A stretch of 18,011 bases of DNA from positions 1 to 18,011 of the IMG/VR virus record IMGVR_UViG_2630968500_000004; one strand, written 5' to 3'. This stretch comes from a virus. Taxonomy: Duplodnaviria; Heunggongvirae; Uroviricota; Caudoviricetes. Of the stretch, positions 636-18,011 are shown in pieces; positions within the stretch are counted from its first letter, which is position 1, and every line of letters starts with the position of its first letter. The position numbers were made by a program, and so were the translations under genes. The notes beneath the pieces were generated by a model, which saw nothing but the letters and a program-made list of their open reading frames with translations, was not told the origin of the DNA and ran no database searches.

Positions 636-637
636 TG

Positions 638-2119: not shown

Positions 2120-2496
2120 GAATCATCACTATAGGGAAAAAATGAATATTTAATACGGTAATCCATAAAGTGCCATGATTATAATCAAATTGATGATAAT
2201 CAGCATTAATACTTATGTAACAGCAAGAATTTATGTCTTAAACGTAGACAGTCATCGTATGGGCTGATGTTTCTATACCGTTAAATTGATGCCATCCAAC
2301 TATAAAACCTTGCTGCCCAATGCCCTATAGCTCCCTCAGGCAATTTGCCCTTATCCACTGTTCTGGTCTGGGGATGAGGGATATCAGAATAACCTAACGA
2401 CTCAGGGACTGGGATCACAGGCAACCGTGGCTCGTCGCTTACCTTAATTCAAATTATTTTCAGATAGATATCATTCTTCTGAACATACCCGATTAA

Positions 2497-2532
2497 CGGC
2501 AGAATCTCACGATTCTGCCGTTTTTGTATAAT
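2497..2532 (+). promoter_or_regulatory. Perfect 10-bp inverted repeat (CGGCAGAATC-tcac-GATTCTGCCG), T5 tract, then TATAAT -10 element upstream of the GTPase gene
   Basis: Arms at 2497-2506 and 2511-2520, TTTTT at 2521-2525, TATAAT at 2527-2532, GGAG at 2541-2544, ATG at 2551. Could be an operator overlapping the promoter or an intrinsic terminator for a lost upstream gene. Confidence 0.4.
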
Positions 2533-2550
2533 TTTTCAGAGGAGTAGCTA

Positions 2551-3414: not shown

Positions 3415-3444
3415 GTATTTAATCCATCCCTGTTATTTCCCCGA

Positions 3445-3484
3445 CCCTGTCGCCGATGCGACGGGGATCCCCTTTATTTGTTTT
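3445..3484 (+). terminator. Hairpin plus T-rich tract between the GTPase and DUF932 genes (possible intrinsic terminator or attenuator)
   Basis: 9-bp stem 3445-3453 / 3458-3466 (one G-U wobble), loop CGAT, followed by the T-rich stretch ATCCCCTTTATTTGTTTT. Confidence 0.4.
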
Positions 3485-3505
3485 CCCGTTATGAGGAGTC
3501 TGCTT

Positions 3506-4327: not shown

Positions 4328-4356
4328 CCGTTTAATGTTGCTGCTTTGTTAATATC

Positions 4357-4483
4357 GGACACCACCTGTCCGCATCGCACCGTGCTGACGGTCCTCACTC
4401 ACCGAGGGAAGGCCTGTAACCCCCGCTGCCTCTGGCTTTTGCAGAAATGAAAAATAGTTTCTGTGGTGTCCATACCCTGTCCG
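4357..4483 (+). promoter_or_regulatory. Inverted repeat GGACACCAC / GTGGTGTCC, each followed by a CTGTCCG direct repeat, upstream of the WYL regulator gene
   Basis: GGACACCAC 4357-4365 and its exact reverse complement GTGGTGTCC 4463-4471; CTGTCCG at 4366-4372 and 4477-4483. Lies in the 216-bp gap before the regulator ATG at 4544. Confidence 0.35.
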
Positions 4484-4543
4484 ACCCCCTCTTTAAAGTA
4501 ATCACATCATTTTCAGTCAGTTAACTTTCACGGAGAACGTCTC

Positions 4544-5245
4544 ATGACACAGGCAGAACGCCGCCATGACCGGCTGGCTGTCAGGCTGTCACTGATAATC
4601 AGCCGTCTGGTGGCAGGGGAAACGCTGAGTGTGCGTAAGCTTGCCGCTGAGTTTGGTGTGTCGGTGCGCACGCTGCGGCGTGATTTTCGTGAGCGGCTGA
4701 TGTATCTGGACCTGGAGTATCAGTCCGGATATTGCCGCTTACGCACTGCGGGCAGTGAGACGCAGATGGTGCCCGACGTGCTTATCTTTGCCCACCGCAG
4801 CGGGATGGCCGGTCTTTTCCCTGGCTTTGACCGTCGTCTGGTAAACGCACTGCTGATGTGCGATGAGTCTCCCTGCGTAATCGCACCCGCCAGTCCGGTT
4901 CCTTCGCCATCAGGCGCATTGTCTTTCTGGCGACTGATTCAGGCCATTACCGGGCGCAGGCGGGTGACTCTGATTGCCGAGGGGCAGCGCTGTGAGCGGC
5001 TGGCTCCCTGCCGGTTACTTATCCACCAGCAGGCCTGGTATCTGGTGGCAGAGCACGACGGACATATCGCCGTATTCTCCCTGGATGAAATCCATCTGAT
5101 TCAGCCTTTGCAGGAGACTTTTCGCCGCAATGACAGTCTGTGTCGCCTGGTTGAAGACCCGGTCTTCATTCAGGCCTTACCCCATTTTCGCTTTATCCAG
5201 CATTCACTGCTTACGTTTGTTCCGGCTGACAGCCCACCGGAATAG
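4544..5245 (+). CDS. yfjR: HTH/WYL-domain transcriptional regulator (YfjR-like)
   Basis: 233 aa. N-terminal HTH-like region ([20 protein letters not shown]) and a WYL motif ([22 protein letters not shown]). GGAG 8 nt upstream of the ATG. Length equals E. coli YfjR. Confidence 0.8.
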
Positions 5246-5285
5246 CGCAGGCGTTGTTATCAACGCGGCAACAGGGAGGAGCCCA

Positions 5286-5522
5286 GTGCCCGTTATTGCC
5301 ATTATCGCCATTGTTATCATCGTCATCATTCTGAACAAAACCGGAGTGTCCGACAGCCTCACGGCCTTGACACTTGCAACCGTTGCCGCACTACTGACGG
5401 GAGGTGGCGCAGCCGGTGCTGCCAGTGTCGCGCTGACGCCGTTCGTCGGCGTGCCAGTGGGTATTTTTGTGGGAATTTATGTCTTTGCCAAAGTGGTTCG
5501 TCTGATTTCAGGGAAAAAATAA
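5286..5522 (+). CDS. Small hydrophobic inner-membrane protein (78 aa)
   Basis: GTG start 5286 preceded by GGGAGGA with 5-nt spacing, within the frame of ORF 5130..5522. Translation is almost entirely hydrophobic (VPVIAIIAIVIIVIIL ... GIFVGIYVFAKVV). Stop TAA overlaps the next ATG (TAATG). Occupies the ypjK position of CP4-57; symbol not asserted. Confidence 0.5.
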   Translation: MPVIAIIAIVIIVIILNKTGVSDSLTALTLATVAALLTGGGAAGAASVALTPFVGVPVGIFVGIYVFAKVVRLISGKK

Positions 5523-5965
5523 TGAAACGTAAAACACTACCTCTGCTGGCGCTGGTTGCCACCTCTCTGTTTCTGAGCGCCTGCGATGACAGCAGTGATG
5601 ACCTCAAAGCTATCAGTAAATTTAAGGACCTCACGCCTCCGCGCTTCAGCGATGTGGTCAGTCGGCAGGATGATGTCAGCGAAGAATGGTCACAGGTTGG
5701 CTTTTCATCAGGTCTCACCCTGCAGGTCTTACGTACCCGTGAGTCGCCCGATGGCTGCGAGGGCGGTAGTTACTACTACCTCGTGGATATGCAGGAAAAA
5801 ACCATCCAGCCGCTGATGAATGCGCTGTGTATTGCCGATAACATCAAACTGGAATACCAGGAGGTGACGGACCCGTATACCAAAGAAAAATACTTTGAGT
5901 ACGCCCATGACGGCAAACTGATGGGGCAGCTACTGATACCCTCGAACCCTGACAATCAGGAATAA
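5522..5965 (+). CDS. yfjS: Lipoprotein (YfjS-like)
   Basis: 147 aa. Signal peptide with lipobox LSAC (MKRKTLPLLALVATSLFLSAC). Length and position match E. coli YfjS. Confidence 0.7.
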   Translation: MKRKTLPLLALVATSLFLSACDDSSDDLKAISKFKDLTPPRFSDVVSRQDDVSEEWSQVGFSSGLTLQVLRTRESPDGCEGGSYYYLVDMQEKTIQPLMNALCIADNIKLEYQEVTDPYTKEKYFEYAHDGKLMGQLLIPSNPDNQE

Positions 5966-5987
5966 AACAACGACAAAGGAGACAAGA

Positions 5988-6455
5988 ATGACAATACTTT
6001 CACTAAGTCGGTTTATGCTGGCGGGTGTACTGCTCGCGAGCTTTAATGCCTCTGCTATCCCGGGGTTCTGGCAGCAGGGTTACGGTCAGGGCAATACGGA
6101 ATACAGCGTGACCGAAGCCAGCGGAAAGACGTTTACCATCAACTGCACAGGGAACCCGGACCAGAATGGTTTCTATCAGCATTCAGTCTTTCTTACCCTT
6201 GCCGATGACAAGATGGTCAGTTCGCACGATGACGACACTACTATCACCGTAGTGATGGATCACCAGCAGTACATTATTCCGTCCAGCCTGGGCTGGCGTA
6301 ACGGCGATAACGCCTGGTTTGACTTCATCAGCAATATCTCTGAGGCCGGGCAGTTCGACGTCTACGTCAATGACCACAAAGCAGGGACCTTCACTGCGGA
6401 CCGGAAGAACACTGAGAAAGTTCTGTCCACTCTCGGAGACTGCAGCAACGACTGA
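5988..6455 (+). CDS. yfjT: Secreted/periplasmic protein (YfjT-like)
   Basis: 155 aa. N-terminal signal peptide ([23 protein letters not shown]). AGGAG upstream. Length and position match E. coli YfjT. Confidence 0.7.
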
Positions 6456-6481
6456 TAGTAGTATCTTCCCCAGCAAATCCA

Positions 6482-6516
6482 CCCCGACAGCTAGCAGGCT
6501 GCCGGGGTTTTCTTTT
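6482..6516 (+). terminator. Rho-independent terminator after the yfjT-like gene
   Basis: 10-bp stem CCCCGACAGC 6482-6491 / GCTGCCGGGG 6498-6507 with one A-C mismatch, followed by TTTTCTTTT. Confidence 0.55.
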
Positions 6517-6531
6517 ATCAGGAGCCCGAAA

Positions 6532-6681
6532 ATGACCCAATCCGTGTTGCTGCCACCGGGGCCTTTCACCCGGAGACAAGCGCAAGCGGTCACTACCACG
6601 TACAGCAATATCACACTCGAAGACGACCAGGGCAGTCACTTCCGTCTGGTGGTTCGTGATACTGAAGGCCGGATGGTCTGA
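6532..6681 (+). CDS. Small hypothetical protein (49 aa)
   Basis: ATG 6532 with GGAG 8 nt upstream, directly after the terminator; in frame with listed ORF 6319..6681. No recognisable family. Confidence 0.3.
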
Positions 6682-6868
6682 CGGGCATGGAACTTTGAGC
6701 CGGATGCCGGTGAAGGTCTTAACCGCTATATCCGCACCTCAGGCATCCGTACAGACACGGCCACCCGCTGATCGCGAAGCATTTACCCGCATTCACCTCC
6801 CCGAACACACTTTATATCCCCATACGCCAGCCATCGCCGCTGGCGTTTTTATTGACGGAGACATACCC

Positions 6869-7327
6869 ATGACAACACAGACGCAGCACGACCTCGCACC
6901 CGCTAACCAACCCGAATTTGAACTGACCGTCACGCCGGTCCCCGATGAACAGCGTATCGATTTCTGGCCACAGTACTTTGGCGCTATCCCGCAGTGGCTA
7001 CTCCTGGAGCCGCATATCTTCGCCTGGATGGACCGCTTCTGTGAGGGCTACAGCGGTGGTATCTGGTCGTTCTACACCCTCAGCAATGGCGGCGCATTTA
7101 TGTCCCCCGAGCCTGACAACGATGAGACATGGCGTCTGTTTAACTGCCTGAACGGTAACGATGCCCAAATGAGTGCAGAAGCAGCAGGTATTGCTGTCTG
7201 CCTGATTGCGTATAGCCACCATGCCTGCCGTACAGAATGTGACGCGATGACCGCACACTATTACCGCCTGCGGGAGTATGCCATGCAACATCCAGAGGCT
7301 CACGCCATTCTGCGTATTATCGACTGA
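6869..7327 (+). CDS. yfjX: Antirestriction-family protein (YfjX-like)
   Basis: Frame of ORF 6656..7327. Start set to the internal ATG 6869 (GGAG 9 nt upstream), giving 152 aa, the length of E. coli YfjX; the upstream extension looks non-coding. Family call is by resemblance, not alignment. Confidence 0.7.
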   Translation: MTTQTQHDLAPANQPEFELTVTPVPDEQRIDFWPQYFGAIPQWLLLEPHIFAWMDRFCEGYSGGIWSFYTLSNGGAFMSPEPDNDETWRLFNCLNGNDAQMSAEAAGIAVCLIAYSHHACRTECDAMTAHYYRLREYAMQHPEAHAILRIID

Positions 7328-7342
7328 CCGAAGGAGCAACAG

Positions 7343-7819
7343 ATGAAACAGCTTTCCTTTTTACCCGGCGAGATGACGCCACAGGACCGGCGTCTCATTC
7401 AGCGGGCGCTCAGGGCTCTGGACCGCCACCTGCATGAGCCCGGCGTAGCCTTCACCTCTACCCACGCCGTACGTGAATGGCTGCGACTGCATATGGCCGC
7501 GCTTGAGCGGGAAGAGTTCCGGGTGTTGTATCTGGACAACCAGAATCAGTTGATTGCCCATGAAACGCTCTTCACCGGCACGATTAACCGCACCGAGGTG
7601 CATCCCCGGGAGGTGGTCAAACGTGCTCTGCACTTCAACGCGGCGGCGGTGATACTCGCGCATAACCATCCTTCCGGCGAGACGACACCTAGCCAGGCCG
7701 ACAAAACCCTCACGCAGCGACTGGTTCAGGTGCTTCAGCTGGTGGATATCCGTGTCCCTGACCATCTGATTGTCGGTGGCAGGCAAATCTATTCGTTCGC
7801 AGAACACGGTCTGCTTTGA
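7343..7819 (+). CDS. yfjY: RadC-like JAB-domain protein (YfjY/YeeS/YkfG family)
   Basis: 158 aa with the JAMM-type motif HNHPSG and the conserved PSQAD segment. AGGAG upstream. Confidence 0.85.
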   Translation: MKQLSFLPGEMTPQDRRLIQRALRALDRHLHEPGVAFTSTHAVREWLRLHMAALEREEFRVLYLDNQNQLIAHETLFTGTINRTEVHPREVVKRALHFNAAAVILAHNHPSGETTPSQADKTLTQRLVQVLQLVDIRVPDHLIVGGRQIYSFAEHGLL

Positions 7820-7827
7820 GGTATTAC

Positions 7828-8049
7828 ATGAAAATTATCAGTAAACGCAGGGCAATGACGATATACCGCCAGCATCCTGAGTCCCGAATCTTTCGCTACT
7901 GCACCGGCAAATACCAGTGGCACGGTAGCGTCTGTCATTACACCGGCAGGGACGTTCCGGATATCGCCGGAGTCCTCGCGGTATACGCCGAACGCCGCCA
8001 GGACCGCAATGGGCCCTATACCTGCCTGATGAGCATCACCCTGAACTGA
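7828..8049 (+). CDS. ypjJ: DUF987-family small protein (YpjJ/YeeT-like)
   Basis: Frame of ORF 7816..8049. ATG 7828 preferred (GAGG upstream; 7816 is a TTG inside the RadC stop region). Sequence pattern RIFRYCTGKYQWHGS ... GPYTCLMSITLN is typical of YeeT/YpjJ proteins. Confidence 0.7.
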   Translation: MKIISKRRAMTIYRQHPESRIFRYCTGKYQWHGSVCHYTGRDVPDIAGVLAVYAERRQDRNGPYTCLMSITLN

Positions 8050-8067
8050 CAATAGTGGAGAACTGTA

Positions 8068-8747
<680 letters not shown>

Positions 8748-8811
8748 ACATTGCGTACAACCTTCCCGATTTACATTTCTGAACTTCCTCCCTTGTTTAC
8801 CTATTGCGTAA

Positions 8812-8847
8812 TGCGCCTGCTACTACCCGGCAGGCGCGTTATCTTTT
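8812..8847 (+). terminator. Rho-independent terminator after the toxin gene
   Basis: Perfect 8-bp stem GCGCCTGC 8812-8819 / GCAGGCGC 8829-8836, 9-nt loop, then GTTATCTTTTT. Confidence 0.6.
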
Positions 8848-9275
8848 TACGGACAAACAATCATGCAACCAGAAGTTGAAGTATTAACCGATCATAATGA
8901 GCTAATTTGTTCGAGCTTTATTGAACACATTGCCAACACATTAAATTTAGGAGTGGTGTACAACTAAACCTGCAGCCAAGGATGTATAGTGAGCGAAGCC
9001 CTATCAGGCCTTTTTGGTCAGTAGATAAGATTGATCTTCGTTGATAGAATTTACTTACACCAGCTGTTACATTAAGATAATTTTTTGGTGGGAGAATGAT
9101 AAGATCTTACGTAACAATTTGATTTTAATGGTGCGATAATAGGAACAATACCTAACGATCAATCACCATGATTTAAATGAATTTTTATGCTTTCGATTTT
9201 CTCACATACCCCCAAAAGTACCCCCACATTGTTTTTCGTCTCAATTTTGGGGTATGCGCTTACCAAGAAACACAG

Positions 9276-9515: not shown

Positions 9516-9989
9516 TTAGCCCATAAACCGACGATAAGCCTCTCCGGCTTCTTCTGCGGTAAGGCTTGTGGTCTCCGCCCTGATCGGCCCGCCGTCCTTA
9601 CCTGTAGTCTCGACTTTCAGCTTATTGGTGTAAGCATCTCCGCACTCTTTTGCGGCCTGTTCGATCAGCTGCGCCGTCAATGCGTAGTTTTTTATCGCCT
9701 CGGCTCGGTTTGCCATACGATCCAGCATTCGCAACCGGTACGCTTTGTTAGCGATCGGGATATCGGATATTTCACTCTGGAACCGGGCGCGAGTGTGGTT
9801 AAAGAGCTCGACCCACTTTTTGCTAAGATTTTTAGCCATCGAATTTTCAGGGTTGTAGGCCGATATCTGCTGCCGGGTAACAACGATACCAAAATCTTGT
9901 TTTACAAGTTCGACAATTCTTGATGGAGGTTCATAGCAGGCTAAAGATTGAATAATCATCACCTTAGCCATAGTTGGTAATGCTGCCAT
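9516..9989 (-). CDS. Phage small-terminase-like / DUF2280-like protein (tentative)
   Basis: 157 aa. N-terminal segment (IIQSLACYEPPSRIVELVKQDFGIVVTRQQISAY) resembles the HTH-type N-terminus of DUF2280 / small-terminase-like phage proteins as I remember them. Recognition is from memory and unverified. Confidence 0.45.
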   Translation of the reverse strand: MAALPTMAKVMIIQSLACYEPPSRIVELVKQDFGIVVTRQQISAYNPENSMAKNLSKKWVELFNHTRARFQSEISDIPIANKAYRLRMLDRMANRAEAIKNYALTAQLIEQAAKECGDAYTNKLKVETTGKDGGPIRAETTSLTAEEAGEAYRRFMG

Positions 9990-10081
9990 CGCTCACCTTT
10001 TGACAAAGGAAATCAAAGTAGCGCACTGAGTTCTGACCTCCCGCGCCGCTACTTAAAGTTACATATCACGCCATCTGACCG

Positions 10082-10261
10082 TCACCCTACGTTATTTCGC
10101 ATGGTTTCCGCTGTGCGAGATTCTTCGCTGATCGCACTCTCACCGAAGCTGCCAATACCATCTGGTTCCGGCTGCCCGTTGATATCATCCAGCCAGGTAC
10201 GAACCTTACCATTCTGGCTGGCTCCGCTTTCTTCTGGTTTCAGTTTTTCAATATTGCTCAT
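10082..10261 (-). CDS. Small acidic hypothetical protein (59 aa), absent from the ORF track
   Basis: Hand translation of the minus strand: MSNIEKLKPEESGASQNGKVRTWLDDINGQPEPDGIGSFGESAISEESRTAETMRNNVG. Its ATG (10261-10259) overlaps the spike-gene stop TGA (10260-10258) as ATGA, suggesting translational coupling. Confidence 0.3.
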   Translation of the reverse strand: MSNIEKLKPEESGASQNGKVRTWLDDINGQPEPDGIGSFGESAISEESRTAETMRNNVG

Positions 10262-10920
10262 TGTGGTTTTCCTGTGTTGCTGCCGCCTGATTGTACACCG
10301 CCGTGGGTATGGTTAATCTGGCTGATACCGTTGGCCGTTTGGTCGCCAGTGGAAGTGATCGTTCCGTTTACCTGCACGGGCCCGTTAAGGGTGATTTGAG
10401 AGCTGGTAATCGTAATGGCTCCACCAGCGGCCACTTCTACAAATGCCGCGCCATCATCGGTTCGCAGCTGCGCGGCGCTGGTACTGATACCGCTGATTTT
10501 CTTCACCTGCGACTGCGGGCCAGGAATCACGAACGCATCCGACAGATCTAAAACACGCCCGTCAGCTCGCTCCTGCACACCGCCGTTTTGCCACCAGAAA
10601 TCAATCGAACGCGAAGAGAATACGATAAGGCACTCATCACCTTCTTTGATAGGGAAGGTCAGGGTCACGCCACCGCCACGAGGGAACACAACTGGCAAAT
10701 CAACCAGAATAGGATACCTAACTGATTCATACTGATAGTCTTCCTCGACGGTGCCGGGTTTCGTCATTCTGGCAATTATTGCTACGTCGACGTCACAGGT
10801 CACTGTTTCCGGGTCAAATGAACGGATAATGCCTGGTAAGGCATTCTTTACCGCAGCATTGCTATTGCTCTGTATTTGGTTAACCGTATCTTGCTCATTG
10901 GCAGGTCGAATAAATGGCAT
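10258..10920 (-). CDS. Phage baseplate central spike protein, gpV / Gp138-type
   Basis: Frame of minus ORF 10258..10965. N-terminal LPGIIRSFDPETVTCDVDVAI is an OB-fold-like spike signature; C-terminus INHTHGGVQSGGSNTGKP carries the HxH apex motif typical of P2 gpV-type spikes. Start chosen at ATG 10920 (GGGG 5 nt upstream); the alternative TTG at 10965 would overlap the preceding gene. Confidence 0.6.
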   Translation of the reverse strand: MPFIRPANEQDTVNQIQSNSNAAVKNALPGIIRSFDPETVTCDVDVAIIARMTKPGTVEEDYQYESVRYPILVDLPVVFPRGGGVTLTFPIKEGDECLIVFSSRSIDFWWQNGGVQERADGRVLDLSDAFVIPGPQSQVKKISGISTSAAQLRTDDGAAFVEVAAGGAITITSSQITLNGPVQVNGTITSTGDQTANGISQINHTHGGVQSGGSNTGKPQ

Positions 10921-10930
10921 AGCTACCCCA

Positions 10931-11278
10931 TCAACCTGATATACGTTTACAGTCAAACGAGCCAATAATGCGAGGCTCGTCCATATTGCCGCGAATCAAC
11001 TCAACATTAAGCCAGCGTTTATTGCTTCCGTTCGGGTGAATGTATTCAAAGCCGTACATATTCCCATCACGCGCAGGCATCAATGTCATCTCAACTTTGA
11101 GTCCATCATCACCGAGTTCAGTAATTTTTTGAGATGTAACCATTTCCCCGTTAACTCTTGTCATTTCGCCGACTTTGGCAACAAGATTGAAGTTTCCACA
11201 TTGTGAAATTACTGTTCCAGTATTTGCTAAAGCATTAGTGGAAAGTATCACGGATAAGAAAATGAATGTTTTTTTCAT
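10931..11278 (-). CDS. Secreted protein with a cleavable signal peptide (115 aa), low-GC insert
   Basis: N-terminus MKKTFIFLSVILSTNALA followed by NTG: a classic Sec signal with an AxA site and no lipobox cysteine. Codon usage is visibly AT-richer than both flanking genes. Two cysteines in the mature part. Confidence 0.6.
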   Translation of the reverse strand: MKKTFIFLSVILSTNALANTGTVISQCGNFNLVAKVGEMTRVNGEMVTSQKITELGDDGLKVEMTLMPARDGNMYGFEYIHPNGSNKRWLNVELIRGNMDEPRIIGSFDCKRISG

Positions 11279-11282
11279 GCAG

Positions 11283-12374
11283 TTACCACTTATTTAGTGT
11301 TTCGCCAGAATAAATATCAGTAGCGCCCCGAGCTTCACAAGCCAGATCCATATACCATGCCTGCCCTCTGGTATCGCCGGTATAATTTATATACCGAACC
11401 TTATAAACACCGTCAGTTGCAATGCTGGCAGGTTGAGAGGTTGGTGGCGCATCAATCAGGTTTCCATTGGCATCCTTGATCTTCGTTATTGGTACAAGGT
11501 TTCCATCAATATCTTTTTCGACAAATCGCCCACTAAATATATCCTGATTCGACAATGGATTGCGGTACACCGACGCCTGATCCAACTGAATAAGCCCATT
11601 CAGTTGAATACTTGAATTGATTAAACAGCGTACATTAACCCCAGCTCCGATAGTTTGCTGAGGCATGCCCACCAGCCCAGTATTTGAGTTTAATACTACG
11701 GCCTGATGTGCCGCTGTATCTCTGGCAATCATGTCGACCTTGCCGTAACTAAACTGCCAGGTAGCCTTACACTGCGCAGCTACCTCATCAAGATAGTTAT
11801 GCACGTAACCAAAGAAAGCTCGCCCGCGAGGAAATACCGTTGATGGAAAAACCGGAGTGATACCGCGCCCGATACCATAGGGTTCCAAGCTCGTCATGAG
11901 AAGGTTATAGACGTCTTCAGTGGTGTAGCCTTTCTGAATGGTCGTACTGACGAACGCGCTGACAAACGCTTCTTCTGAATCACAGGCCTGCACGAGAATC
12001 CAGGAATCGACGAGATTATCCTTACCGGTCACTGTAAAACGGATATCACCGCTAAAGATCATCCCATAGTTTTGCCCATTGGTTTGACCTACCTGGTCAG
12101 GTGAAATCTCCCGGACGACACCAACTTCACTCTCCTGAACATCCTTAGCCAGGCCATCATATCCCGCTATCAGAACAATCTTGGCAAACTCACGCTGCAT
12201 AATACGGTTCTGAGTGGTCGGTGAAAGGTTGTAGATCTTGACCGTCGCGACAGCTGGCCATTTGTTATCGTTACGCTCTATATCAAAGGTAACTTTGAAA
12301 TCACTAAGGCTAATTCCTTTGCCATTCTCATCGATGAGCTGTAGCTCGAAATGGCGCATCCAGTTATATGACAT
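11283..12374 (-). CDS. Phage tail/baseplate protein, possibly a gpD-like hub (tentative)
   Basis: 363 aa, with an AGGAA ribosome-binding site. N-terminal beta-rich pattern (HFELQLIDENGKGISLSDFKVTFDIERNDNKWPAVATVKIYNLSP) resembles the N-terminal domain of P2 gpD / Mu gp44 hub proteins, and it sits upstream of the spike gene as in Mu-like tail modules. The coding call is solid; the hub assignment is weak. Confidence 0.5.
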   Translation of the reverse strand: MSYNWMRHFELQLIDENGKGISLSDFKVTFDIERNDNKWPAVATVKIYNLSPTTQNRIMQREFAKIVLIAGYDGLAKDVQESEVGVVREISPDQVGQTNGQNYGMIFSGDIRFTVTGKDNLVDSWILVQACDSEEAFVSAFVSTTIQKGYTTEDVYNLLMTSLEPYGIGRGITPVFPSTVFPRGRAFFGYVHNYLDEVAAQCKATWQFSYGKVDMIARDTAAHQAVVLNSNTGLVGMPQQTIGAGVNVRCLINSSIQLNGLIQLDQASVYRNPLSNQDIFSGRFVEKDIDGNLVPITKIKDANGNLIDAPPTSQPASIATDGVYKVRYINYTGDTRGQAWYMDLACEARGATDIYSGETLNKW

Positions 12375-12728: not shown

Positions 12729-13280
12729 TTACCTTGTGCGGTGCCAGAAGCTGGCATTATCGGTGTTGATCTGGCGGAGAGAGTCGCCAGTGGTGAGAGT
12801 CTTCGGCGTTACGTTATTGGCCTTCATGTAGTCGCCCACCTGCTCCAGCACGTCGATAGCCTGATCCAGCGGGATTTCTGACAGCGGGGTCGGGTGTACG
12901 GCGCTGAACGCCTCAACAGGGGCATAGCGCAGCACATCGAGCGCGACAATGCGCGGGTCGGCGTCGGGCAGCGCTGAATCGTACTTTGGCGCTACGGCGC
13001 GTACCAGCCGCATGAACTCGGCATTCATGGCCGTTGGTGCTGTAGACGTTGGAGAAGCGCCGCTACCACTTCGGGTAATCATGTCACTATCGCGGGTGTA
13101 CATACGACGCAAACGGTCGCCGGTTGCAATGCGTGTAGCGCGTTCCTGTTTAAGCGTTGTTGCAAGATTTGCAATGATAGCCGCTACCTGTGCGTTACAG
13201 GCAAATACGGCTTCGCTTCCATCCGCGAACGTGACCACCCCGCTTTCACCAGATATAGAGATGTTTGAGATTTCTTGCAT
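12729..13280 (-). CDS. Hypothetical protein (183 aa), first gene of the minus-strand operon
   Basis: ATG at 13280-13278; long ORF with no recognisable family by eye. Followed by tightly spaced or overlapping downstream genes. Confidence 0.55.
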   Translation of the reverse strand: MQEISNISISGESGVVTFADGSEAVFACNAQVAAIIANLATTLKQERATRIATGDRLRRMYTRDSDMITRSGSGASPTSTAPTAMNAEFMRLVRAVAPKYDSALPDADPRIVALDVLRYAPVEAFSAVHPTPLSEIPLDQAIDVLEQVGDYMKANNVTPKTLTTGDSLRQINTDNASFWHRTR

Positions 13281-13314
13281 GGTTCAGAACCTTAGTAATT
13301 GCTCGAATTCTGAT

Positions 13315-13333
13315 CATTGCACAAATTGCAATG
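13315..13333. promoter_or_regulatory. Operator-like palindrome CATTGCA-n5-TGCAATG upstream of the minus-strand operon
   Basis: 7-bp arms at 13315-13321 and 13327-13333. ATTGCACA recurs at 13406-13413. Located 35-55 bp upstream of the 183-aa gene start. Confidence 0.3.
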
Positions 13334-13428
13334 TTAGTAAATATCGTTGCGAATATTGAAATAATAAATCAACCTGTTACTATGGATATGAGTCACTATT
13401 GTGTGATTGCACAGCATGGTTAACAAAA

Positions 13429-13462
13429 GCCCGCGCCTCTCCAAGCGTGGGCTTTTTCTTTT
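13429..13462. terminator. Rho-independent terminator, potentially bidirectional
   Basis: 8-bp stem GCCCGCGC 13429-13436 / GCGTGGGC 13445-13452 (one G-U wobble), loop CTCTCCAA, TTTTTCTTTTC downstream and ACAAAA upstream. Confidence 0.5.
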
Positions 13463-13842
13463 CTGGTCAGCAACGTGTCTCTTTCCCTCATCGGTTACTT
13501 AAAAAATCGATTCCACGCCCGGTATACCCTTCAATCCCTCAAGCCATGCGCTTGCCAAGCCCATCATGTATACAAAACCGGGCAAAAATACATTGAGGGG
13601 TATACAGCCATACCCCAGCAGTGGCAGGGGTTAGGAGGCATTGATTATCAATGCGTGGGGTGTGATAACTTTTTGTGGATTTATTCAGCAAAAACACATC
13701 GGTGTATCCGGTGATGCGGTCAGAGATCTGACACGTTCCCCCCCCTGGTGATCGGCGGAAAAGTCCGCCGATGCTGATGCTGGCCTAACCTGCTTTCGAT
13801 GTTTTCGTTTTAGAGAAAACGCTATAGATAAACAAAAACATG

Positions 13843-14133
13843 TTGGTTCAGTCGGTTCAGTTGGTTCAATTTGTAAAGATTGTTGTTTTATAAGGTTTAT
13901 TTATTGATGAGTGAACCAACAAAGCCATGTTTTGAACCAACAATCGCTATTTTCGTGTTGGTTCAGTGGGAAAGATTTACAGGCCAGCCAGAAAAGGGTG
14001 TTGGTTCAATAGCGGTATTTGTTGGTTCAAAATGGGCGTTTGTTGGTTCAGTGTTGGTTCACTTATGAACATATAAGTATATTAAATACATACAGTTATC
14101 TTAATTATGTAGTTACTGAACCAACTGAACCAA
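13843..14133. repeat. Iteron array: 12 copies of the octamer TTGGTTCA / TGAACCAA (one degenerate); candidate origin of replication
   Basis: Forward copies at 13843, 13853 (cGGTTCA, degenerate), 13861, 13958, 14001, 14022, 14043, 14054. Reverse copies at 13912, 13933, 14117, 14126. Irregular spacing, AT-rich context, immediately 3' of the primase-helicase gene. Confidence 0.7.
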
Positions 14134-14158
14134 CAAAAAACAATCTCGTGTGTGTGCT

Positions 14159-16840
14159 TTATTCTTCGCCCTCTATCTCGTCGGGTCGTAGCTGGAGCAC
14201 ATAAACGTTTATCTGGCGTCCATCAATTCGTGGGGATTTACGCTGATACCCCCTTCCGCTGGCTGGCGGTTTCAGCACCCCAGCTCCGGCAAGCACACGG
14301 GCAAACTGTTTAGCATTAAAGCCCTGCGCTATCTCCTTTTCGAACGCAGCCGGAAAGGTGTAGAACACTACGGGGCTTTCGTCATGCTCGCCTTTCTGAC
14401 GGTATCCGGCTAAATCCCGGATAGGCATGTCAGCCGGGCTATACGGGAATGGCGCGAAACGGCTCAGGCCGTAGGCATTAAGAAACGCCTCCGCCTGCTC
14501 AATGATCTGCTTATGCTCACGGTTCCCCGTGCCGAACTCTTTTACCCAGGCGTTAAAGCCATGCTGGATGGCGTCCCGGCTTTCCTGCTCCCCCCAGCCA
14601 GTGACAGGCATCCCGAGCACCAACGCCGCCTCCAGAATAGCGAACCGCTCGCCTACACGATGAACCTGTTCGCCATAATCAGCAGGGATAAGACTACGCC
14701 AGCGCTCCTGCGCCGCTTTGACAGCTTGTTTCGCCTCCTGCTGGTGGCCTGCAAGCCATTTAATCCATTCACGGCCTGCGGCTCCGTGGTTCGTCTGGTA
14801 TGCCTCTTTGAGTGCGTCAGCGTGCTGCTTGCCGTTCTGGTACTCATGGTGCGATACGGATTTCTCCATCGGTAAATTAAGCAGTCGCACCAGTTGCCCG
14901 GCCTTAACTTTCAGCCCACCAGCAGAAAGAAACGTCTCAATGTCCATTTCCCCGGTACTGATCGCCACGGTACGCCAGCGCTTTAACTCGCGGTTGCCTC
15001 CCTCCTTCGCCCCCTGTAGCTTTCCGGCACCGTTAAACAGCGTGTAAGCAGACGTAGCAACGTCTTTCGCGCTGCTACCCTGCCCCACTTCGTCCAGGGG
15101 TAACAGGCTATCGTTATGCGCTTCCGCTTCGTTGGCGATACCCAAAGCAGTACCGTACCAGGTGAGGCGCAGGGCATCAGGTTCACCGTAAAGGCTGCTG
15201 GCTATATTGGCGGTCGTCGTCTTACCAGCACTGGACTGTTCGAAAAGGTGAACGCCGAAACCGTCAGCACCAACAAGCCCGATCAGCGGCGCAGACAGCG
15301 CAGCAGCAACGCCCAGCATCATTGACGGGTTGCCCAGCGCAAGGCGCGCCACCGAATCACGCCAGCTTTCCGGCGTTCCACTGACGGTATAGCCACCAGC
15401 CGCAGCACTCCGACCACTGAATAACAGCGGTATCTCTGGCTCACCAATAACATCACCATCCGGCATGATGTACGCCCCGCTGTGCCAGCCTGTGGTGTGG
15501 CTGATCTGCCATTCCTTGCCGCTACCGGTTCGCTGTAGCCAGTCGGCCAGAATCGCCCGCAACGATGGTTTGGTCGTTACACTGACACCGCCGTTTTTCA
15601 GCGTGCGCCATCCCTCACGGTCGCCAATGTCCTCCCATGGAAGCGCCCGGGTAACTTGCCCCCGGTTGCCGGGGACGTCCCAACGCAGGATCAGAAAGCG
15701 CTGTCTGGCGTTATCACTCCCCGCACCAGCAATCTCCAGCGGAGAGCATAGCCACGCCTCGGTATTGATAATTTCCCCTGTGTCTTTATCCACTTTCGGG
15801 GTGATCCAGTGAATGCCATCCGCACGGCTCTCTACTCGCGGTTTCAGATCGTCGTCGATACCGGGTTTTTTCTTGCCGCCGTCGATAGCTGTCAGTGTCG
15901 CGCCCACTTTCTTACCCTCCGGTTGGTACATTGAGTCGTTAAATGCTGCTGTGGCCGCTTCGAGGCCGTATTGCTGGTGGTAGTCGTTCCAGTCCGCTTT
16001 ATAGTCCACTGGTGGCATGGAAACCCAGCCAGAAACGGCTTTCGCTGCTTTCTCTGCGGCCTCCTTGCCAGTGTTAACTTTCACTCCTCCAATTCCGTCA
16101 CTTTCGCCGCTCTGATCGTTATCTGCGGCAATGATGATCTGCGCGTTCGGGTAGCGCTGACGCATCGCCATAGCAACAGCGGGGAGGTTCCCGGCGTCAA
16201 TTGCGGCCACCGCCAGCGCATCAGGTCGCATATGCTGACCGGATATGACTGTCGCCAGCCCTTCCCCGATCAGCACTACATTCGGCGTATCAACGTTACC
16301 CAGGGCAAAGAAAGATCCTTTTTTTACCGTGCCAGCCACCAGCCGCTTACTACCATCAGGTTTAATGACCTGCGCCCCGGTAATCGCCCCGGCTACGTTC
16401 GTCAATGTGATCAACATCGAGCCATCAGACAGCAGCGGGAAGGGGCGCTGTAGCCCCTTTGATGTGAGGTATTCCGATTGACCTGATACAGCCTTGGCAG
16501 CCAGCGCAGCAACCTTAGCCACGATATCGGTTTGAGGCTTCTCTCTGGCTGGCTGCTGTTCCGGCAGCGGCAGCGCCATCACTTCCGCCACCATCACAGC
16601 TGCCTCACGCGCACCGCACTGCCTGACCTTCATCACCAGATCCAGCCCCGTACCTGCGCCACAATGTGAGCAAAAGTAAGTACCTCGCCCGTCCTTGTCG
16701 TCAAAGCGGTAACGGGTATTGCCACCGCAAGCCGGGCATGGTCCCTCGCTGCGATTGGTTGGAATACCGAGCCGTTCAAAAATTGGCTGCCAGTGGCCGG
16801 TCGCCTTGATGCGCACATCGTTTATAAAATTATCTTTCAC
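14159..16840 (-). CDS. P4-alpha-like DNA primase-helicase (zinc-binding primase domain, Toprim, C-terminal ATPase)
   Basis: 893 aa. N-terminal zinc ribbon CPACGG ... CSHCG, Toprim-like acidic motif IIIAADNDQSGESDG, P-loop-like SSAGKTT in the C-terminal half. Architecture typical of satellite/island primase-helicases. Confidence 0.85.
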   Translation of the reverse strand: MKDNFINDVRIKATGHWQPIFERLGIPTNRSEGPCPACGGNTRYRFDDKDGRGTYFCSHCGAGTGLDLVMKVRQCGAREAAVMVAEVMALPLPEQQPAREKPQTDIVAKVAALAAKAVSGQSEYLTSKGLQRPFPLLSDGSMLITLTNVAGAITGAQVIKPDGSKRLVAGTVKKGSFFALGNVDTPNVVLIGEGLATVISGQHMRPDALAVAAIDAGNLPAVAMAMRQRYPNAQIIIAADNDQSGESDGIGGVKVNTGKEAAEKAAKAVSGWVSMPPVDYKADWNDYHQQYGLEAATAAFNDSMYQPEGKKVGATLTAIDGGKKKPGIDDDLKPRVESRADGIHWITPKVDKDTGEIINTEAWLCSPLEIAGAGSDNARQRFLILRWDVPGNRGQVTRALPWEDIGDREGWRTLKNGGVSVTTKPSLRAILADWLQRTGSGKEWQISHTTGWHSGAYIMPDGDVIGEPEIPLLFSGRSAAAGGYTVSGTPESWRDSVARLALGNPSMMLGVAAALSAPLIGLVGADGFGVHLFEQSSAGKTTTANIASSLYGEPDALRLTWYGTALGIANEAEAHNDSLLPLDEVGQGSSAKDVATSAYTLFNGAGKLQGAKEGGNRELKRWRTVAISTGEMDIETFLSAGGLKVKAGQLVRLLNLPMEKSVSHHEYQNGKQHADALKEAYQTNHGAAGREWIKWLAGHQQEAKQAVKAAQERWRSLIPADYGEQVHRVGERFAILEAALVLGMPVTGWGEQESRDAIQHGFNAWVKEFGTGNREHKQIIEQAEAFLNAYGLSRFAPFPYSPADMPIRDLAGYRQKGEHDESPVVFYTFPAAFEKEIAQGFNAKQFARVLAGAGVLKPPASGRGYQRKSPRIDGRQINVYVLQLRPDEIEGEE

Positions 16841-17057: not shown

Positions 17058-17354
17058 TTATTTACCTTTCGTCATCTGACGACACTGATATTCCGCATTG
17101 GCTGCGGTATCAGATAACGCTCGCGCCAGCGGCATTAATTCCATCAGCATCCCACCAATATCTCGGAAATCTGTTGCTGACGGCTCATATTCACCGTTCT
17201 CAGCACCACCAGCGTAGAACATCATCTTACCTACAGCGGCGATCCCATTCAGGATGCTATCGGCGGCGCACTCAGCACGGGAAGACAGCATCTGGAGATC
17301 AGATTTATCGGTATCAGGGAAATCGGTGCGCACAAAATCGTTGTAAAGGTTCAT
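17058..17354 (-). CDS. Hypothetical protein (98 aa) coupled to the recombinase gene
   Basis: ATG overlaps the recombinase stop (ATGA); GGAGGT 5 nt upstream. No family recognised. Confidence 0.45.
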   Translation of the reverse strand: MNLYNDFVRTDFPDTDKSDLQMLSSRAECAADSILNGIAAVGKMMFYAGGAENGEYEPSATDFRDIGGMLMELMPLARALSDTAANAEYQCRQMTKGK

Positions 17355-18011
17355 GCTGTGACCTCCATAGCCAGACGTGACTGGATCGCGGATGCTTTAC
17401 TACCGAGCTGTAAATAGGTGCGGGTAATAGCCGGGTTGCTATGCCCCAGCATTTCAGAAGCCACCAGCAAGCCTTGCTCACCGCCTGCTGACATGAGGTT
17501 AAACGCGGCTATTTTGCGACTGGAGTATGCGCTAAGGCGCAGCTTGGCGTTAATGAAACGGGTGAACCACTGCATAACATCATGCAGCTTGCGCCAGATA
17601 GTCTGGCGAGTAACGCTACCTTCCAGACATTGGCAACGGTTACTTTCGATTTGAGAGCGGGAAAATACCAGGTCGTCCTCTACCAGATTCCGATCCTGAC
17701 GGTCACGCAGCCGCTTGATGATGCCTGGCGGTAACTGCTTGGTGTCGTGTTTGACGTCAGCCTTTGCCACCAGCTCGAATACTATGGCCTGTTCTTCGCC
17801 GTTCATGTCGGCGGCCAGTTCGTCACAACCGATGCTATCCCACTTCATGTAGGCGATATGATCAGCGGCCATCCGGGCGGCATCCTTACGTTGCTGGCGC
17901 ACAATCTCGATACCTTTGCGGGTTGCCCGCGCTTCGGCGGCTTTGGTTTGCTTGGCAACGATAATTGTCGCCTGCCCCGTTTCCCAATTGACGCAGGAAT
18001 AGCGGAGGGTG
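17351..18011 (-). CDS. Tyrosine-type site-specific recombinase/integrase, C-terminal catalytic part (5' end lies outside the window)
   Basis: Reading frame stays open to the window edge; the listed start at 17902 is an internal GTG. C-terminus has a tyrosine-recombinase-like pattern (LGHSNPAITRTYLQ, with an upstream conserved-arginine region). Family call by eye. Confidence 0.55.
   Translation of the reverse strand, partial: TLRYSCVNWETGQATIIVAKQTKAAEARATRKGIEIVRQQRKDAARMAADHIAYMKWDSIGCDELAADMNGEEQAIVFELVAKADVKHDTKQLPPGIIKRLRDRQDRNLVEDDLVFSRSQIESNRCQCLEGSVTRQTIWRKLHDVMQWFTRFINAKLRLSAYSSRKIAAFNLMSAGGEQGLLVASEMLGHSNPAITRTYLQLGSKASAIQSRLAMEVTA

What the first reader, a model, noticed from the sequence alone, without database searches (positions are those of the whole stretch)
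13843..14133. Twelve-copy octamer iteron array next to the primase-helicase gene: candidate replication origin
TTGGTTCA or its complement recurs 12 times in about 290 bp, in both orientations and with irregular spacing, in an AT-rich stretch ending 26 bp from the stop of a P4-alpha-like primase-helicase gene. Established knowledge: P4 alpha binds reiterated octamers at the P4 ori and crr sites. By analogy this array is the likely ori bound by the adjacent protein, which would mean the element can replicate autonomously.
Basis: partly seen in the sequence, partly recalled or inferred. Interest (0 to 1): 0.6.

Follow-up and report, generated by a model that had tools for sequence, protein, structure and literature searches.

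The report
Replication origin of a phage satellite
The repeated octamers are almost certainly the replication origin of a small phage-parasitic island (a PICI-type satellite), read by the tail end of the neighbouring primase-helicase; this is a known kind of origin in a lineage where it had not been mapped.

Summary
There are 11 exact TTGGTTCA plus one TCGGTTCA, all within 13843-14133, against 0.57 expected in the whole window. The true unit is the 9-mer GTTGGTTCA. The array ends 25 nt from the stop of an 893-aa gene.

The array has two inverted modules. Each has tightly spaced (9 bp) and loosely spaced (11-21 bp) iterons converging on a 20-21% GC spacer.

The neighbouring protein resembles P4 alpha only in its primase part (residues 1-307). 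Its helicase and C-terminal winged helix match the SaPIbov1 Rep / SCCmec Cch self-loading initiators (DUF927).

In 66 homologous loci from Enterobacterales, 64 carry a repeated 7-9-mer array starting about 25 nt after the stop, most with the same layout. One has a decayed array and one follows a truncated gene. About 11 different repeat sequences occur, and each tracks a short C-terminal segment of the protein (865-YQRKSPR-871 for this iteron). Boxes are 95-100% conserved while the DNA between them is only 49-62% conserved.

The element is a roughly 13-kb Gram-negative PICI at tRNA-Thr (int, AlpA, Pri-Rep, ori), related to EcCIMP1. I conclude it is a SaPI/PICI-type origin: a new member of a known kind.

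The new detail is that in at least six relatives the distal module lies 4.6-9 kb away, with cargo genes in between, which recalls P4 ori/crr.

The parts
14001..14133 (-). Proximal ori module, read in the direction of the pri-rep gene: a tight iteron pair (14126-14133, 14117-14124; 9-bp spacing), a 55-bp spacer of 20% GC (14062-14116), then four iterons in the opposite orientation (14054, 14043, 14022, 14001; spacing 11, 21, 21).
   Evidence: the same layout at the same offsets from the stop in most of the 66 homologous loci
13966..14000 (.). Linker between the two modules (51% GC). It contains CCAGCCAG (13984-13991; CTGGCTGG in gene orientation), which is conserved across loci with different iterons. 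In relatives with a split origin, cargo genes are inserted just beyond this motif.
13843..13965 (-). Distal ori module, inverted relative to the proximal one: a single iteron (13958), a loose pair (13933, 13912; 21-bp spacing), a 43-bp spacer of 21% GC (13869-13911), then a tight triple (13861, 13852 variant TCGGTTCA, 13843; 9-bp spacing).
   Evidence: the same module lies 4.6-9 kb away in L003/L004, L010, L020, L028, L038 and L072
13822..13838 (-). Conserved flank just beyond the last iteron (TTTTTGTTTATCTATAG in gene orientation). It is present in loci of several iteron classes. Its function is unknown; it could be a promoter element or a host-factor site.
14159..16840 (-). pri-rep gene, 893 aa: Zn-ribbon (residues 32-66), Toprim primase (189-292) and DUF927 MCM-like self-loading helicase/initiator (342-620 and beyond).
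   Evidence: Pfam; phrog_1139 full length, E 2e-186; PDB by sequence 8tch E 3e-15, by profile 1e-18, and 5dgk 6e-11; predicted fold matches 5dgk (E 3e-23) and 8tch (E 5e-22)
14189..14371 (-). Coding region for the C-terminal winged-helix-like domain (residues about 824-884: strand, helix 830-837, helix 843-853, strand, long wing, strand 878-884).
   Evidence: AlphaFold model, pLDDT about 80-86 in this region; profile alignment runs through the C-terminal domain of Cch
14207..14257 (-). Codons for the wing GRGYQRKSPRIDGRQIN (residues 862-878), the segment that co-varies with the iteron sequence. It is the proposed specificity determinant.
9121..9144 (.). Candidate attR of the element: a 24/27 match to the 3' end region of tRNA-Thr at the integrase end, which lies outside the window at L001 28642-28668. 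This would make the element about 12.9 kb.
   Evidence: weak, E 0.003; gene map

Best explanation
The array is the replication origin of a roughly 13-kb PICI-type phage satellite integrated at tRNA-Thr (thrW). It consists of two inverted modules. In each module, a tightly spaced and a loosely spaced set of GTTGGTTCA iterons point towards a spacer of about 20% GC.

The proposed mechanism is inferred by homology to SaPI Rep. After helper-phage induction and excision, the adjacent Pri-Rep protein binds the iterons through the wing of its C-terminal winged-helix domain (865-YQRKSPR-871 and neighbouring residues). It assembles as hexamers on both sides of a spacer and melts the AT-rich DNA without DnaA. 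It then loads itself as an MCM-like helicase, and its N-terminal Toprim domain lays down the primers.

Shown here: the repeats, their non-random clustering, their conserved position and layout, selection on the boxes, co-variation with the protein's C-terminal segment, and the protein's homology. Inferred: binding, melting, and origin firing.
For: 1. Statistics: 11 exact copies against 0.57 expected.

2. Position and layout: in 64 of 66 homologous loci a repeated 7-9-mer array begins about 25 nt after the stop. In most, the offsets are the same: >25 >34 (>44), AT spacer, <95 <106 <127, linker, <170 <191 >215, spacer, <257 <266 <275.

3. Selection on the boxes: between loci with the same iteron, box columns are 95-100% identical while non-box columns are 49-62% identical.

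4. Co-variation: about 11 iteron sequences occur. All 29 loci with GTTGGTTCA have an invariant YQRKSPR. Loci of equal background identity (0.70-0.75) but with other iterons have this segment changed: GTTGTCTCA with YQGRV-RE, GTCGGTTCA with QRKTPR..QIT, and ACGGGTTA with YKRKALKRIG. At 0.7-0.8 background identity, wing identity is 0.83 for same-iteron pairs and 0.46 for different-iteron pairs. In L017 versus L025, all 12 boxes carry the same 2-nt change at homologous positions.

5. Protein: the helicase and C-terminal domain are homologous to SaPIbov1 Rep and Cch by sequence and by predicted fold.

6. Literature: SaPI Rep binds 6-12 iterons immediately downstream of rep through a C-terminal winged helix, with at least two iterons on each side of an AT-rich region pointing in opposite directions (PMC9371898, PMC7581432). 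Gram-negative PICIs have the same ori organisation, and the EcCICFT073 pri-rep-ori segment drives plasmid replication (PMC6092414). I saw the same layout in that verified ori.

7. Element context: P4-type integrase, AlpA, Ash, DUF4222 and Pri-Rep are all co-oriented next to tRNA-Thr.
Against: There is no experimental evidence for binding or replication in this lineage. The paper on the related EcCIMP1 shows excision and transfer but does not map an origin or measure replication.

The wing-coding codons lie only 45-100 bp from the array, so some of the co-variation could come from co-transfer of linked DNA. However, the changes are confined to the boxes and the wing while the flanking DNA stays alignable, and this argues against pure linkage.

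One homolog (L033) has a decayed array next to an apparently intact gene.

The experimentally verified E. coli PICI ori belongs to a non-homologous (D5-type) Pri-Rep.
Confidence: 0.85

Rival explanations
1. The repeats are Pri-Rep binding sites whose main role is regulatory rather than initiation. Possible roles are autoregulation, control of the downstream late or accessory operon, or copy-number handcuffing. The true origin would then lie elsewhere.
For: The array lies between pri-rep and the next co-oriented operon, which starts at 13280. A conserved TATA-rich motif follows the last iteron. In split relatives the distal module sits directly upstream of perC. The co-variation shows binding, not firing.
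Against: The 20% GC spacers flanked by convergent iterons are the layout of verified SaPI and PICI origins (PMC9371898, PMC6092414). No other iteron cluster exists in the element. The promoter scan shows no excess of sigma-70-like sites.
Confidence: 0.07
2. The element is a P4-family satellite and the array is a P4-type ori/crr bound by a P4 alpha orthologue.
For: The N-terminal primase is 36% identical to P4 alpha. P4 crr also lies immediately 3' of alpha. It has two modules of octamers in both orientations, each with a tight 9-bp pair. The integrase is P4-type.
Against: The helicase and origin-binding parts are not homologous: DUF927 here against D5_N/DUF5906/Pox_D5 in P4 alpha. The iteron differs (GTTGGTTCA against TGTTCACC). 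No psu, sid, delta or epsilon genes are annotated or detected.
Confidence: 0.03
3. The array is a packaging (pac/cos-like) site read by the element's DUF2280 protein, a possible small-terminase-like protein, or by helper terminase.
For: Satellites need packaging signals, and a DUF2280 gene lies at the end of the operon.
Against: The repeat sequence tracks the Pri-Rep wing. The EcCIMP1-like element (L003/L004) has identical iterons but no annotated DUF2280 gene.
Confidence: 0.03
4. The inverted repeats are target sites of the second tyrosine recombinase inside the element, forming an invertible switch or resolution site.
For: A 291-aa tyrosine recombinase lies three genes upstream of pri-rep. 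The repeats occur in both orientations.
Against: The recombinase is absent from L003/L004, which carry the same iterons. No inverted variants of the spacers appear among close homologues. Twelve short sites with helical phasing do not look like a recombination core.
Confidence: 0.01
5. The region encodes the 53-aa protein annotated in RefSeq (WP_159105817.1, window 13907-14068 +).
For: PGAP annotated it in strain G5.
Against: The ORF is a read-through of iterons (repeated VGS). It lacks its ATG in L005, is interrupted in L002 and L006, and is not annotated in L002.
Confidence: 0.01

Closest known systems
SaPIbov1 Rep and its ori (Staphylococcus aureus pathogenicity islands)
   Same: The helicase/initiator is homologous: PDB 8tch by sequence E 3e-15, by profile 1e-18, and by predicted fold E 5e-22. 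The origin lies immediately 3' of the gene. It has 6-12 short iterons in two opposed sets around an AT-rich region. Recognition is by a C-terminal winged helix, and there are no DnaA boxes.
   Different: Here the Rep is fused to a P4-alpha-like Zn-ribbon/Toprim primase. The iterons are 9 nt rather than 5-6 nt. There are two complete modules in inverted orientation, and these can be kilobases apart in relatives. The host is Gram-negative.
EcCICFT073 pri-rep-ori (Gram-negative PICI, experimentally verified origin; PMC6092414)
   Same: The element type and gene order are the same: int, AlpA, Icd-like, DUF4222, pri-rep, ori. The ori starts a few nt after the stop and has about a dozen 8-mers (TGTCTACC type) in both orientations around an AT-rich spacer.
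   Different: Its Pri-Rep is D5_N/DUF5906/Pox_D5 (SF3) and not homologous to the DUF927 helicase here. The iteron and the attachment site also differ.
EcCIMP1 (E. coli MP1 PICI mobilised by phage Kapi1; PMC11773190)
   Same: The integration locus is the same (next to proA, at tRNA-Thr). The element in L003/L004 fits the published description of EcCIMP1. Its Pri-Rep is 61% identical to this one, and its iterons and wing are identical.
   Different: The EcCIMP1-like elements are about 20 kb and carry P22-like ejection-protein genes and perC. Their two ori modules are 8 kb apart. The paper does not describe an origin.
Phage P4 alpha protein with ori and crr
   Same: The N-terminal primase is homologous (36% identity). 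Octamer iterons occur in both orientations. A two-module cis element (crr) lies immediately 3' of the gene, and a second iteron site lies 4.5 kb away. This resembles the split arrangement seen in relatives.
   Different: The helicase and origin-binding domains are not homologous. The iteron is TGTTCACC. P4 has sid, psu, delta and epsilon and can live as a plasmid.
SCCmec Cch helicase (DUF927, PDB 5dgk)
   Same: It is the best structural match to the model (Foldseek E 3e-23, TM 0.61/0.66). The profile alignment extends through the C-terminal domain.
   Different: Cch has no fused primase. In the papers read here, an iteron origin was shown only for Cch2, which belongs to a different helicase family (PMC7581432).

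Membership tests
SaPI/PICI-type replication origin | Lies immediately 3' of the rep (pri-rep) gene | tested here: met
   The first iteron starts 25 nt after the stop. The same holds in 64 of 66 homologous loci.
SaPI/PICI-type replication origin | Multiple short iterons in two sets flanking an AT-rich region, with at least two on each side pointing in opposite directions | tested here: met
   The proximal module has 2 + 4 iterons around a 55-bp, 20% GC spacer. The distal module has 2(+1) + 3 around a 43-bp, 21% GC spacer. The criterion is from PMC9371898 and PMC6092414.
SaPI/PICI-type replication origin | The cognate initiator is a self-loading Rep helicase with a C-terminal winged-helix domain | tested here: met
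   Sequence and profile homology to 8tch and 5dgk. The predicted fold matches both best, over the full length. The C-terminal domain is modelled as helix-helix-strand-wing-strand.
SaPI/PICI-type replication origin | Rep binds its own iterons specifically | tested here: inconclusive
   The evidence is indirect but strong: iteron sequence co-varies with wing residues 865-878 across about 11 specificities. No binding assay is possible with these tools.
SaPI/PICI-type replication origin | The rep-ori segment drives autonomous replication | not testable with these tools
   This needs a conditional-replicon assay like the one done for EcCICFT073 (PMC6092414).
Gram-negative PICI (phage-inducible chromosomal island) | int, alpA and pri-rep are co-oriented, with ori downstream of pri | tested here: met
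   Gene map of strain G5; Phage_AlpA E 1.4e-17 and P4-type integrase domains; Pri-Rep.
Gram-negative PICI (phage-inducible chromosomal island) | Small size (about 10-20 kb) with defined att sites and no complete set of virion or lysis genes | tested here: inconclusive
   The candidate attR at 9121-9144 gives about 12.9 kb, but the match is weak. Only a hub-like gene, a spike-like gene and DUF2280 were found; no capsid, terminase large subunit or lysis genes.
Gram-negative PICI (phage-inducible chromosomal island) | Induction, excision and high-frequency transfer by a helper phage | not testable with these tools
   This has been shown for the related EcCIMP1 with phage Kapi1 (PMC11773190), not for this element.
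P4-like satellite / P4 alpha-ori-crr system | An alpha-type protein: Zn-ribbon/Toprim primase plus D5-type SF3 helicase plus a Pox_D5 origin-binding C-terminus | tested here: not met
   Only residues 1-307 align with P4 alpha. P4 alpha has D5_N, DUF5906 and Pox_D5. This protein has DUF927.
P4-like satellite / P4 alpha-ori-crr system | Type I iteron TGTTCACC at ori and crr | tested here: not met
   The iteron here is GTTGGTTCA. The P4 repeats were read.
P4-like satellite / P4 alpha-ori-crr system | P4 hallmark genes (sid, psu, delta, epsilon) | tested here: not met
   None was annotated or detected in the element's genes.
Classical plasmid iteron origin (pSC101 / R6K / RK2 type) | Direct repeats of about 17-22 bp bound by a RepA-type initiator, with DnaA boxes and host DnaB loading | tested here: not met
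   The repeats are 9 nt and occur in both orientations. There is no DnaA box with no mismatch and no IHF consensus in the array. The initiator is itself a helicase.

The most novel reading that the evidence does not exclude
In this Pri-Rep lineage the origin is bipartite. It has two complete iteron modules in inverted orientation that cooperate, for example through Rep-mediated looping or double-hexamer assembly, even when 4.6-9 kb of variable cargo genes lie between them. This would be a PICI counterpart of the P4 ori/crr long-range arrangement. In addition, the 865-878 wing carries a simple, naturally sampled recognition code of about 11 specificities that could be re-programmed.
Probability: 0.3. 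Interest if true: 0.55.

Novelty: new member of a known kind. Interest (0 to 1): 0.35.

Why it matters
It gives a testable origin and a testable initiator-DNA recognition determinant for a widespread Enterobacterales satellite lineage. More than 1,600 homologous Pri-Rep proteins (E <= 1e-10) were found, and EcCIMP1-like islands belong to this lineage. No origin for it is described in the literature I could search.

The family offers a natural series of matched initiator-wing and iteron variants on an otherwise conserved scaffold. This is useful for studying how replicon specificity and incompatibility evolve between competing satellites, and for engineering orthogonal replicons.

The recurrent separation of the two modules by cargo genes raises a mechanistic question about long-range origin cooperation. 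The result also corrects a spurious RefSeq CDS.

Tried and rejected
- Megablast of the region against the phage collection found nothing.
- An Rfam scan of 13000-14400 at a permissive threshold gave only sub-threshold chance hits, so there is no sign of an RNA gene.
- The promoter/terminator scan found no more sites than shuffled sequence. The only notable hairpin (13425-13456) lies outside the array.
- DnaA-box and IHF consensus scans found nothing meaningful inside the array.
- An exact-match search (14 nt or longer) for att repeats found nothing. A short-word blastn gave only a weak attR candidate.
- Per-column mutual information between residues and iteron class is confounded by phylogeny. 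I replaced it with comparisons matched for background identity and with box versus non-box identity.
- A full-text search for the iteron sequence returned only unrelated papers.
- I asked whether the 2018 reference E. coli PICIs share this Pri-Rep. EcCICFT073 does not (D5-type by Pfam). EcCIRM13514's Pri-Rep is annotated 'DNA primase family protein' (607 aa) rather than TOPRIM/DUF927 and was not scanned. ED1a was not in the collection, and O42 was not checked.
- Two alignment calls failed because of frame errors and were redone.
- The recombinase-site, packaging-site and coding-ORF readings were considered and rejected, as set out under the rival explanations.

Full report
**Observation**

The window is E. 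coli strain G5 chromosome NZ_CP060065.1, positions 3700964-3718974.

TTGGTTCA occurs 11 times exactly, and every copy lies in 13843-14133. The expectation is 0.57, with a maximum of 3 in 200 shuffles. A twelfth copy with one mismatch (TCGGTTCA, 13852) sits in register within a 9-bp-spaced triple.

Every copy is preceded by G, so the unit is the 9-mer GTTGGTTCA, and 9 of 12 copies read TGTTGGTTCA. Spacing within each set is 9, 11 or 21 bp.

The array is 35% GC against 53% for the window. Two internal spacers (13869-13911 and 14062-14116) are 21% and 20% GC.

The array ends 25 nt from the stop of the 893-aa ORF at 14159..16840 on the - strand.

**Anatomy**

Read in the direction of the neighbouring gene, the array has two modules in inverted orientation:

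- **Proximal module (14133 down to 14001):** a tight pair of iterons, a 55-bp AT-rich spacer, then four iterons pointing back at spacings of 11, 21 and 21.
- **Linker (13966-14000):** 35 bp and GC-normal, containing CTGGCTGG.
- **Distal module (13965 down to 13843):** one iteron, a loose pair, a 43-bp AT-rich spacer, then a tight triple.

The whole array is therefore a large imperfect palindrome: tight, AT, loose | linker | loose, AT, tight.

**The neighbouring protein**

Pfam finds Zn_Ribbon_Prim (32-66), Toprim_3 (189-292) and DUF927 (342-620).

BLASTP against P4 alpha aligns only residues 1-307 (36% identity, E 5e-42). The rest of P4 alpha is D5_N, DUF5906 and Pox_D5, which this protein lacks.

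The helicase part instead matches solved structures:

| Structure | Search | Result |
|---|---|---|
| SaPIbov1 Rep (8tch) | single sequence | E 3e-15 |
| SaPIbov1 Rep (8tch) | 26-sequence profile | E 1e-18 |
| SCCmec Cch (5dgk) | 26-sequence profile | E 6e-11, alignment runs through Cch's C-terminal domain |

An AlphaFold model of residues 330-893 (mean pLDDT 84, pTM 0.73) has Cch and SaPIbov1 Rep as its top PDB matches by a wide margin. The values are E 3e-23 and 5e-22, with TM 0.5-0.66 over the whole length. MCM, D5/E5 and other AAA+ helicases follow far behind.

The last about 60 residues are modelled as strand, helix (830-837), helix (843-853), strand, a 20-residue wing (858-877), and strand (878-884). 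This is a winged-helix-like domain.

The protein is thus a fusion of a P4-alpha-like primase with a SaPI-Rep/Cch-type self-loading helicase-initiator.

**Comparative test**

A scan of one genome per species returned 80 loci encoding relatives (96% down to about 41% identity). Of these, 66 had a readable gene end and enough 3' flank.

In 64 of the 66, the most frequent 8-mer in the 700 nt after the stop is a clustered repeat found on both strands (3 to 13 exact copies of that 8-mer), starting about 25 nt after the stop. The two exceptions are L033, which has a decayed array, and L059, which has a truncated gene.

The layout is conserved at the level of offsets. A typical pattern is >25 >34 >44, spacer, <95 <106 <127, linker, <170 <191 >215, spacer, <257 <266 <275.

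The repeat sequence, however, differs between lineages. These forms occur:

- GTTGGTTCA
- GTTGTCTCA
- GTCGGTTCA
- GTCGGTTTT
- GTCGGGTA
- ACGGGTTA
- GTTGTACCA
- TGTGGTTCA
- TGACACACT
- (C/T)GGGATAA

A multiple alignment of the origins shows the boxes replaced en bloc at homologous positions. The AT spacer core (TTTATAAGG), the linker motif (CTGGCTGG) and a distal flank (TTTTTGCTTATCTATA) remain recognisable across iteron classes.

Between loci sharing an iteron, the 108 box columns are 95-100% identical while the other columns are 49-62% identical. Between loci of similar background (65-67% non-box identity) but different iterons, box identity drops to 71%, because the same two bases are changed in every box. 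This is selection on the boxes as a set, which is what is expected when one protein reads all of them.

**Co-variation with the protein**

All 29 loci with GTTGGTTCA carry an invariant YQRKSPR (residues 865-871 here), even though the preceding 267 residues (594-860) are only 64-100% identical to this protein across these loci.

Loci with equal background identity (0.70-0.75) but other iterons have exactly this segment changed:

| Iteron | Wing segment | Loci |
|---|---|---|
| GTTGGTTCA | YQRKSPR | 29 loci |
| GTTGTCTCA | YQGRV-RE | L012, L023, L025, L026 |
| GTCGGTTCA | YQRKTPR...QIT | L031 |
| ACGGGTTA | YKRKALKRIG | L034 |

More distant clades have further variants.

At 0.7-0.8 background identity, identity over residues 860-880 averages 0.83 for same-iteron pairs and 0.46 for different-iteron pairs. 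The columns that best separate iteron classes while staying constant within a class are 866, 867, 870, 871, 869, 875, 877 and 878. That ranking alone is confounded by phylogeny.

Physical linkage is a caveat, because the wing codons lie 45-100 bp from the array. It does not explain why the changes are confined to the boxes and the wing.

**What the element is**

The gene lies in an island next to tRNA-Thr and proA. All genes on one strand, the order is: P4-type integrase, a hypothetical gene, AlpA (Pfam E 1.4e-17), a hypothetical gene, an Ash/Icd-like gene, a second tyrosine recombinase, a hypothetical gene, DUF4222, Pri-Rep, the array, five small hypothetical genes, a baseplate-hub-like gene, a gpV-like spike and DUF2280.

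A weak candidate attR at 9121-9144 would make the element about 12.9 kb.

This is the Gram-negative PICI architecture: int, alpA and pri co-oriented, with the ori downstream of pri (PMC6092414, PMC10111431).

Two relatives are informative:

- **L003/L004.** This relative is at the same site in E. coli APEC E19025. Its Pri-Rep is 61% identical, and its wing and iterons are identical. It fits the published description of EcCIMP1, a PICI shown to excise and to be transferred by phage Kapi1 (PMC11773190). That paper does not describe an origin.
- **L002.** This near-identical copy, in strain ECONIH5, lies inside prophage late genes. This is the helper-embedded PICI configuration (PMC10111431).

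**Comparison with known origins**

SaPI origins lie directly downstream of rep. They have 6-12 iterons with an AT-rich centre and at least two iterons on each side in opposite orientation. They are bound by the Rep C-terminal winged helix without ATP (PMC9371898; PMC7581432).

Gram-negative PICIs were reported to have the same organisation, and the EcCICFT073 pri-rep-ori segment supports plasmid replication (PMC6092414). I read that verified ori (L086 6997-7284). It shows the same plan with TGTCTACC-type boxes, but its Pri-Rep is D5-type and unrelated to the helicase here. EcCIRM13514's Pri-Rep is annotated 'DNA primase family protein' rather than TOPRIM/DUF927; I did not scan it.

P4 crr also lies immediately 3' of alpha and has two modules of octamers, each with a tight 9-bp pair. 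P4 ori lies 4.5 kb away.

The array therefore belongs to the SaPI/PICI type of origin, and it is paired with a SaPIbov1-type Rep rather than with the D5-type seen in the reference E. coli PICIs or in P4. No DnaA box or IHF consensus occurs in the array, which is consistent with a self-loading initiator.

**Rival readings**

- **Annotated 53-aa CDS.** The CDS inside the array is a translation of iterons and is not conserved.
- **Recombinase sites.** The second recombinase is absent from L003/L004, which have the same iterons.
- **Packaging site.** DUF2280 is likewise not annotated in L003/L004.
- **RNA gene or promoter.** No RNA family reaches its threshold, and there is no excess of promoter-like sites.
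- **Regulatory Rep-binding sites.** A purely regulatory role cannot be excluded by computation, but the AT-rich unwinding spacers argue for initiation.

**An unexpected detail**

In L003/L004, L010, L020, L028, L038 and L072, only the proximal module follows the gene. A complete distal module, in the same orientation and with the same internal structure, lies 4.6-9 kb downstream.

The intervening genes vary:

- L003: P22-like ejection proteins and an SLT protein.
- L072: a P4 beta-like protein and an SLT protein.
- L010: SSB, ProQ, SLT and Fic.

In L046 the two modules are separated by about 370 bp, and both keep that lineage's own iteron. Sixteen further E. coli genomes match only the distal module of this window.

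Whether the two modules cooperate at a distance, as P4 ori and crr do, is unknown.

**Verdict**

The correct family is the SaPI/PICI Rep-ori module rather than P4 alpha-ori.

It is a new member of a known kind and of modest interest overall. Two leads are worth following: the bipartite and sometimes split architecture, and the natural series of wing/iteron specificities.

Noticed in passing
window 13907-14068 (+): The RefSeq CDS WP_159105817.1 (53 aa, hypothetical protein) lies wholly inside the iteron array and is a translation of the repeats (VGS motifs). It has no ATG in L005, is broken in L002 and L006, and is not annotated in L002. It is probably a spurious gene call.
   Followed up: yes
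L003 9021-9139 and 17189-17297; also L010, L020, L028, L038, L072: In several relatives the two origin modules are 4.6-9 kb apart, with variable cargo between them: ejection-protein genes, SLT, P4 beta-like, SSB, ProQ and Fic. The distal module always keeps the same orientation. This recalls P4 ori/crr.
   Followed up: partly
window 13984-13991 and 13822-13838: Two non-iteron motifs are conserved across loci with different iterons. One is CTGGCTGG in the linker. The other is TTTTTG(C/T)TTATCTATA just beyond the last iteron. Their function is unknown; they could be a host-factor site or a promoter element.
   Followed up: no
window 13425-13456: A strong 12-bp-stem hairpin with T-runs on both sides (bidirectional terminator-like) lies in the 560-bp gap between the array and the next gene. 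It is also present in L002.
   Followed up: no
window 9112-9144 and 9203-9226: Candidate attR: a 24/27 match to the tRNA-Thr 3' end region and a 22/24 match to sequence near the integrase end, with an IHF consensus (9112-9124) alongside. This would make the satellite about 12.9 kb and separate it from the adjacent CP4-6-like segment.
   Followed up: partly
window 9516-12374 (-): The satellite's late region encodes a baseplate-hub-like protein (phrog_196, E 2e-77), a gpV-like membrane-puncturing spike and a DUF2280 protein. EcCIMP1-like relatives carry P22-like ejection-protein genes at the equivalent place. These PICIs seem to carry tail-tip or ejection genes rather than capsid genes.
   Followed up: partly
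L002 (E. coli ECONIH5, NZ_CP026202.1 741770-760648): A 95%-identical copy of the satellite sits between prophage late genes (DUF2213 and Gp24/DUF2184). This is a helper-embedded PICI configuration. It also has an IS5 insertion.
   Followed up: partly
L001 23952-24827 (just beyond the window end; its 3' part is window 17351-18011): A second, short (291 aa) tyrosine recombinase is encoded inside the satellite between the Ash/Icd-like gene and DUF4222. It is absent from the EcCIMP1-like relative. Its role is unknown.
   Followed up: no
L007 (Yersinia pekkanenii), L063 (Photorhabdus temperata), L033 (Citrobacter sp.): Three atypical loci. L007 has three iteron arrays and an interrupted pri-rep, which may reflect recombination between origins. 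L063 has ten tandem GGGATAAC copies at 8-bp spacing. L033 has a decayed array next to an apparently intact gene.
   Followed up: no
window 1-9100: The satellite is followed by a CP4-6-like segment (GTPase, DUF932, YfjR, antirestriction, JAB, YafW/YkfI toxin-antitoxin), a WYL-DDE/IS5-family transposase ORF (860-2119) and the end of the heat-resistance locus (S1C protease). This is a tandem array of islands at thrW.
   Followed up: no
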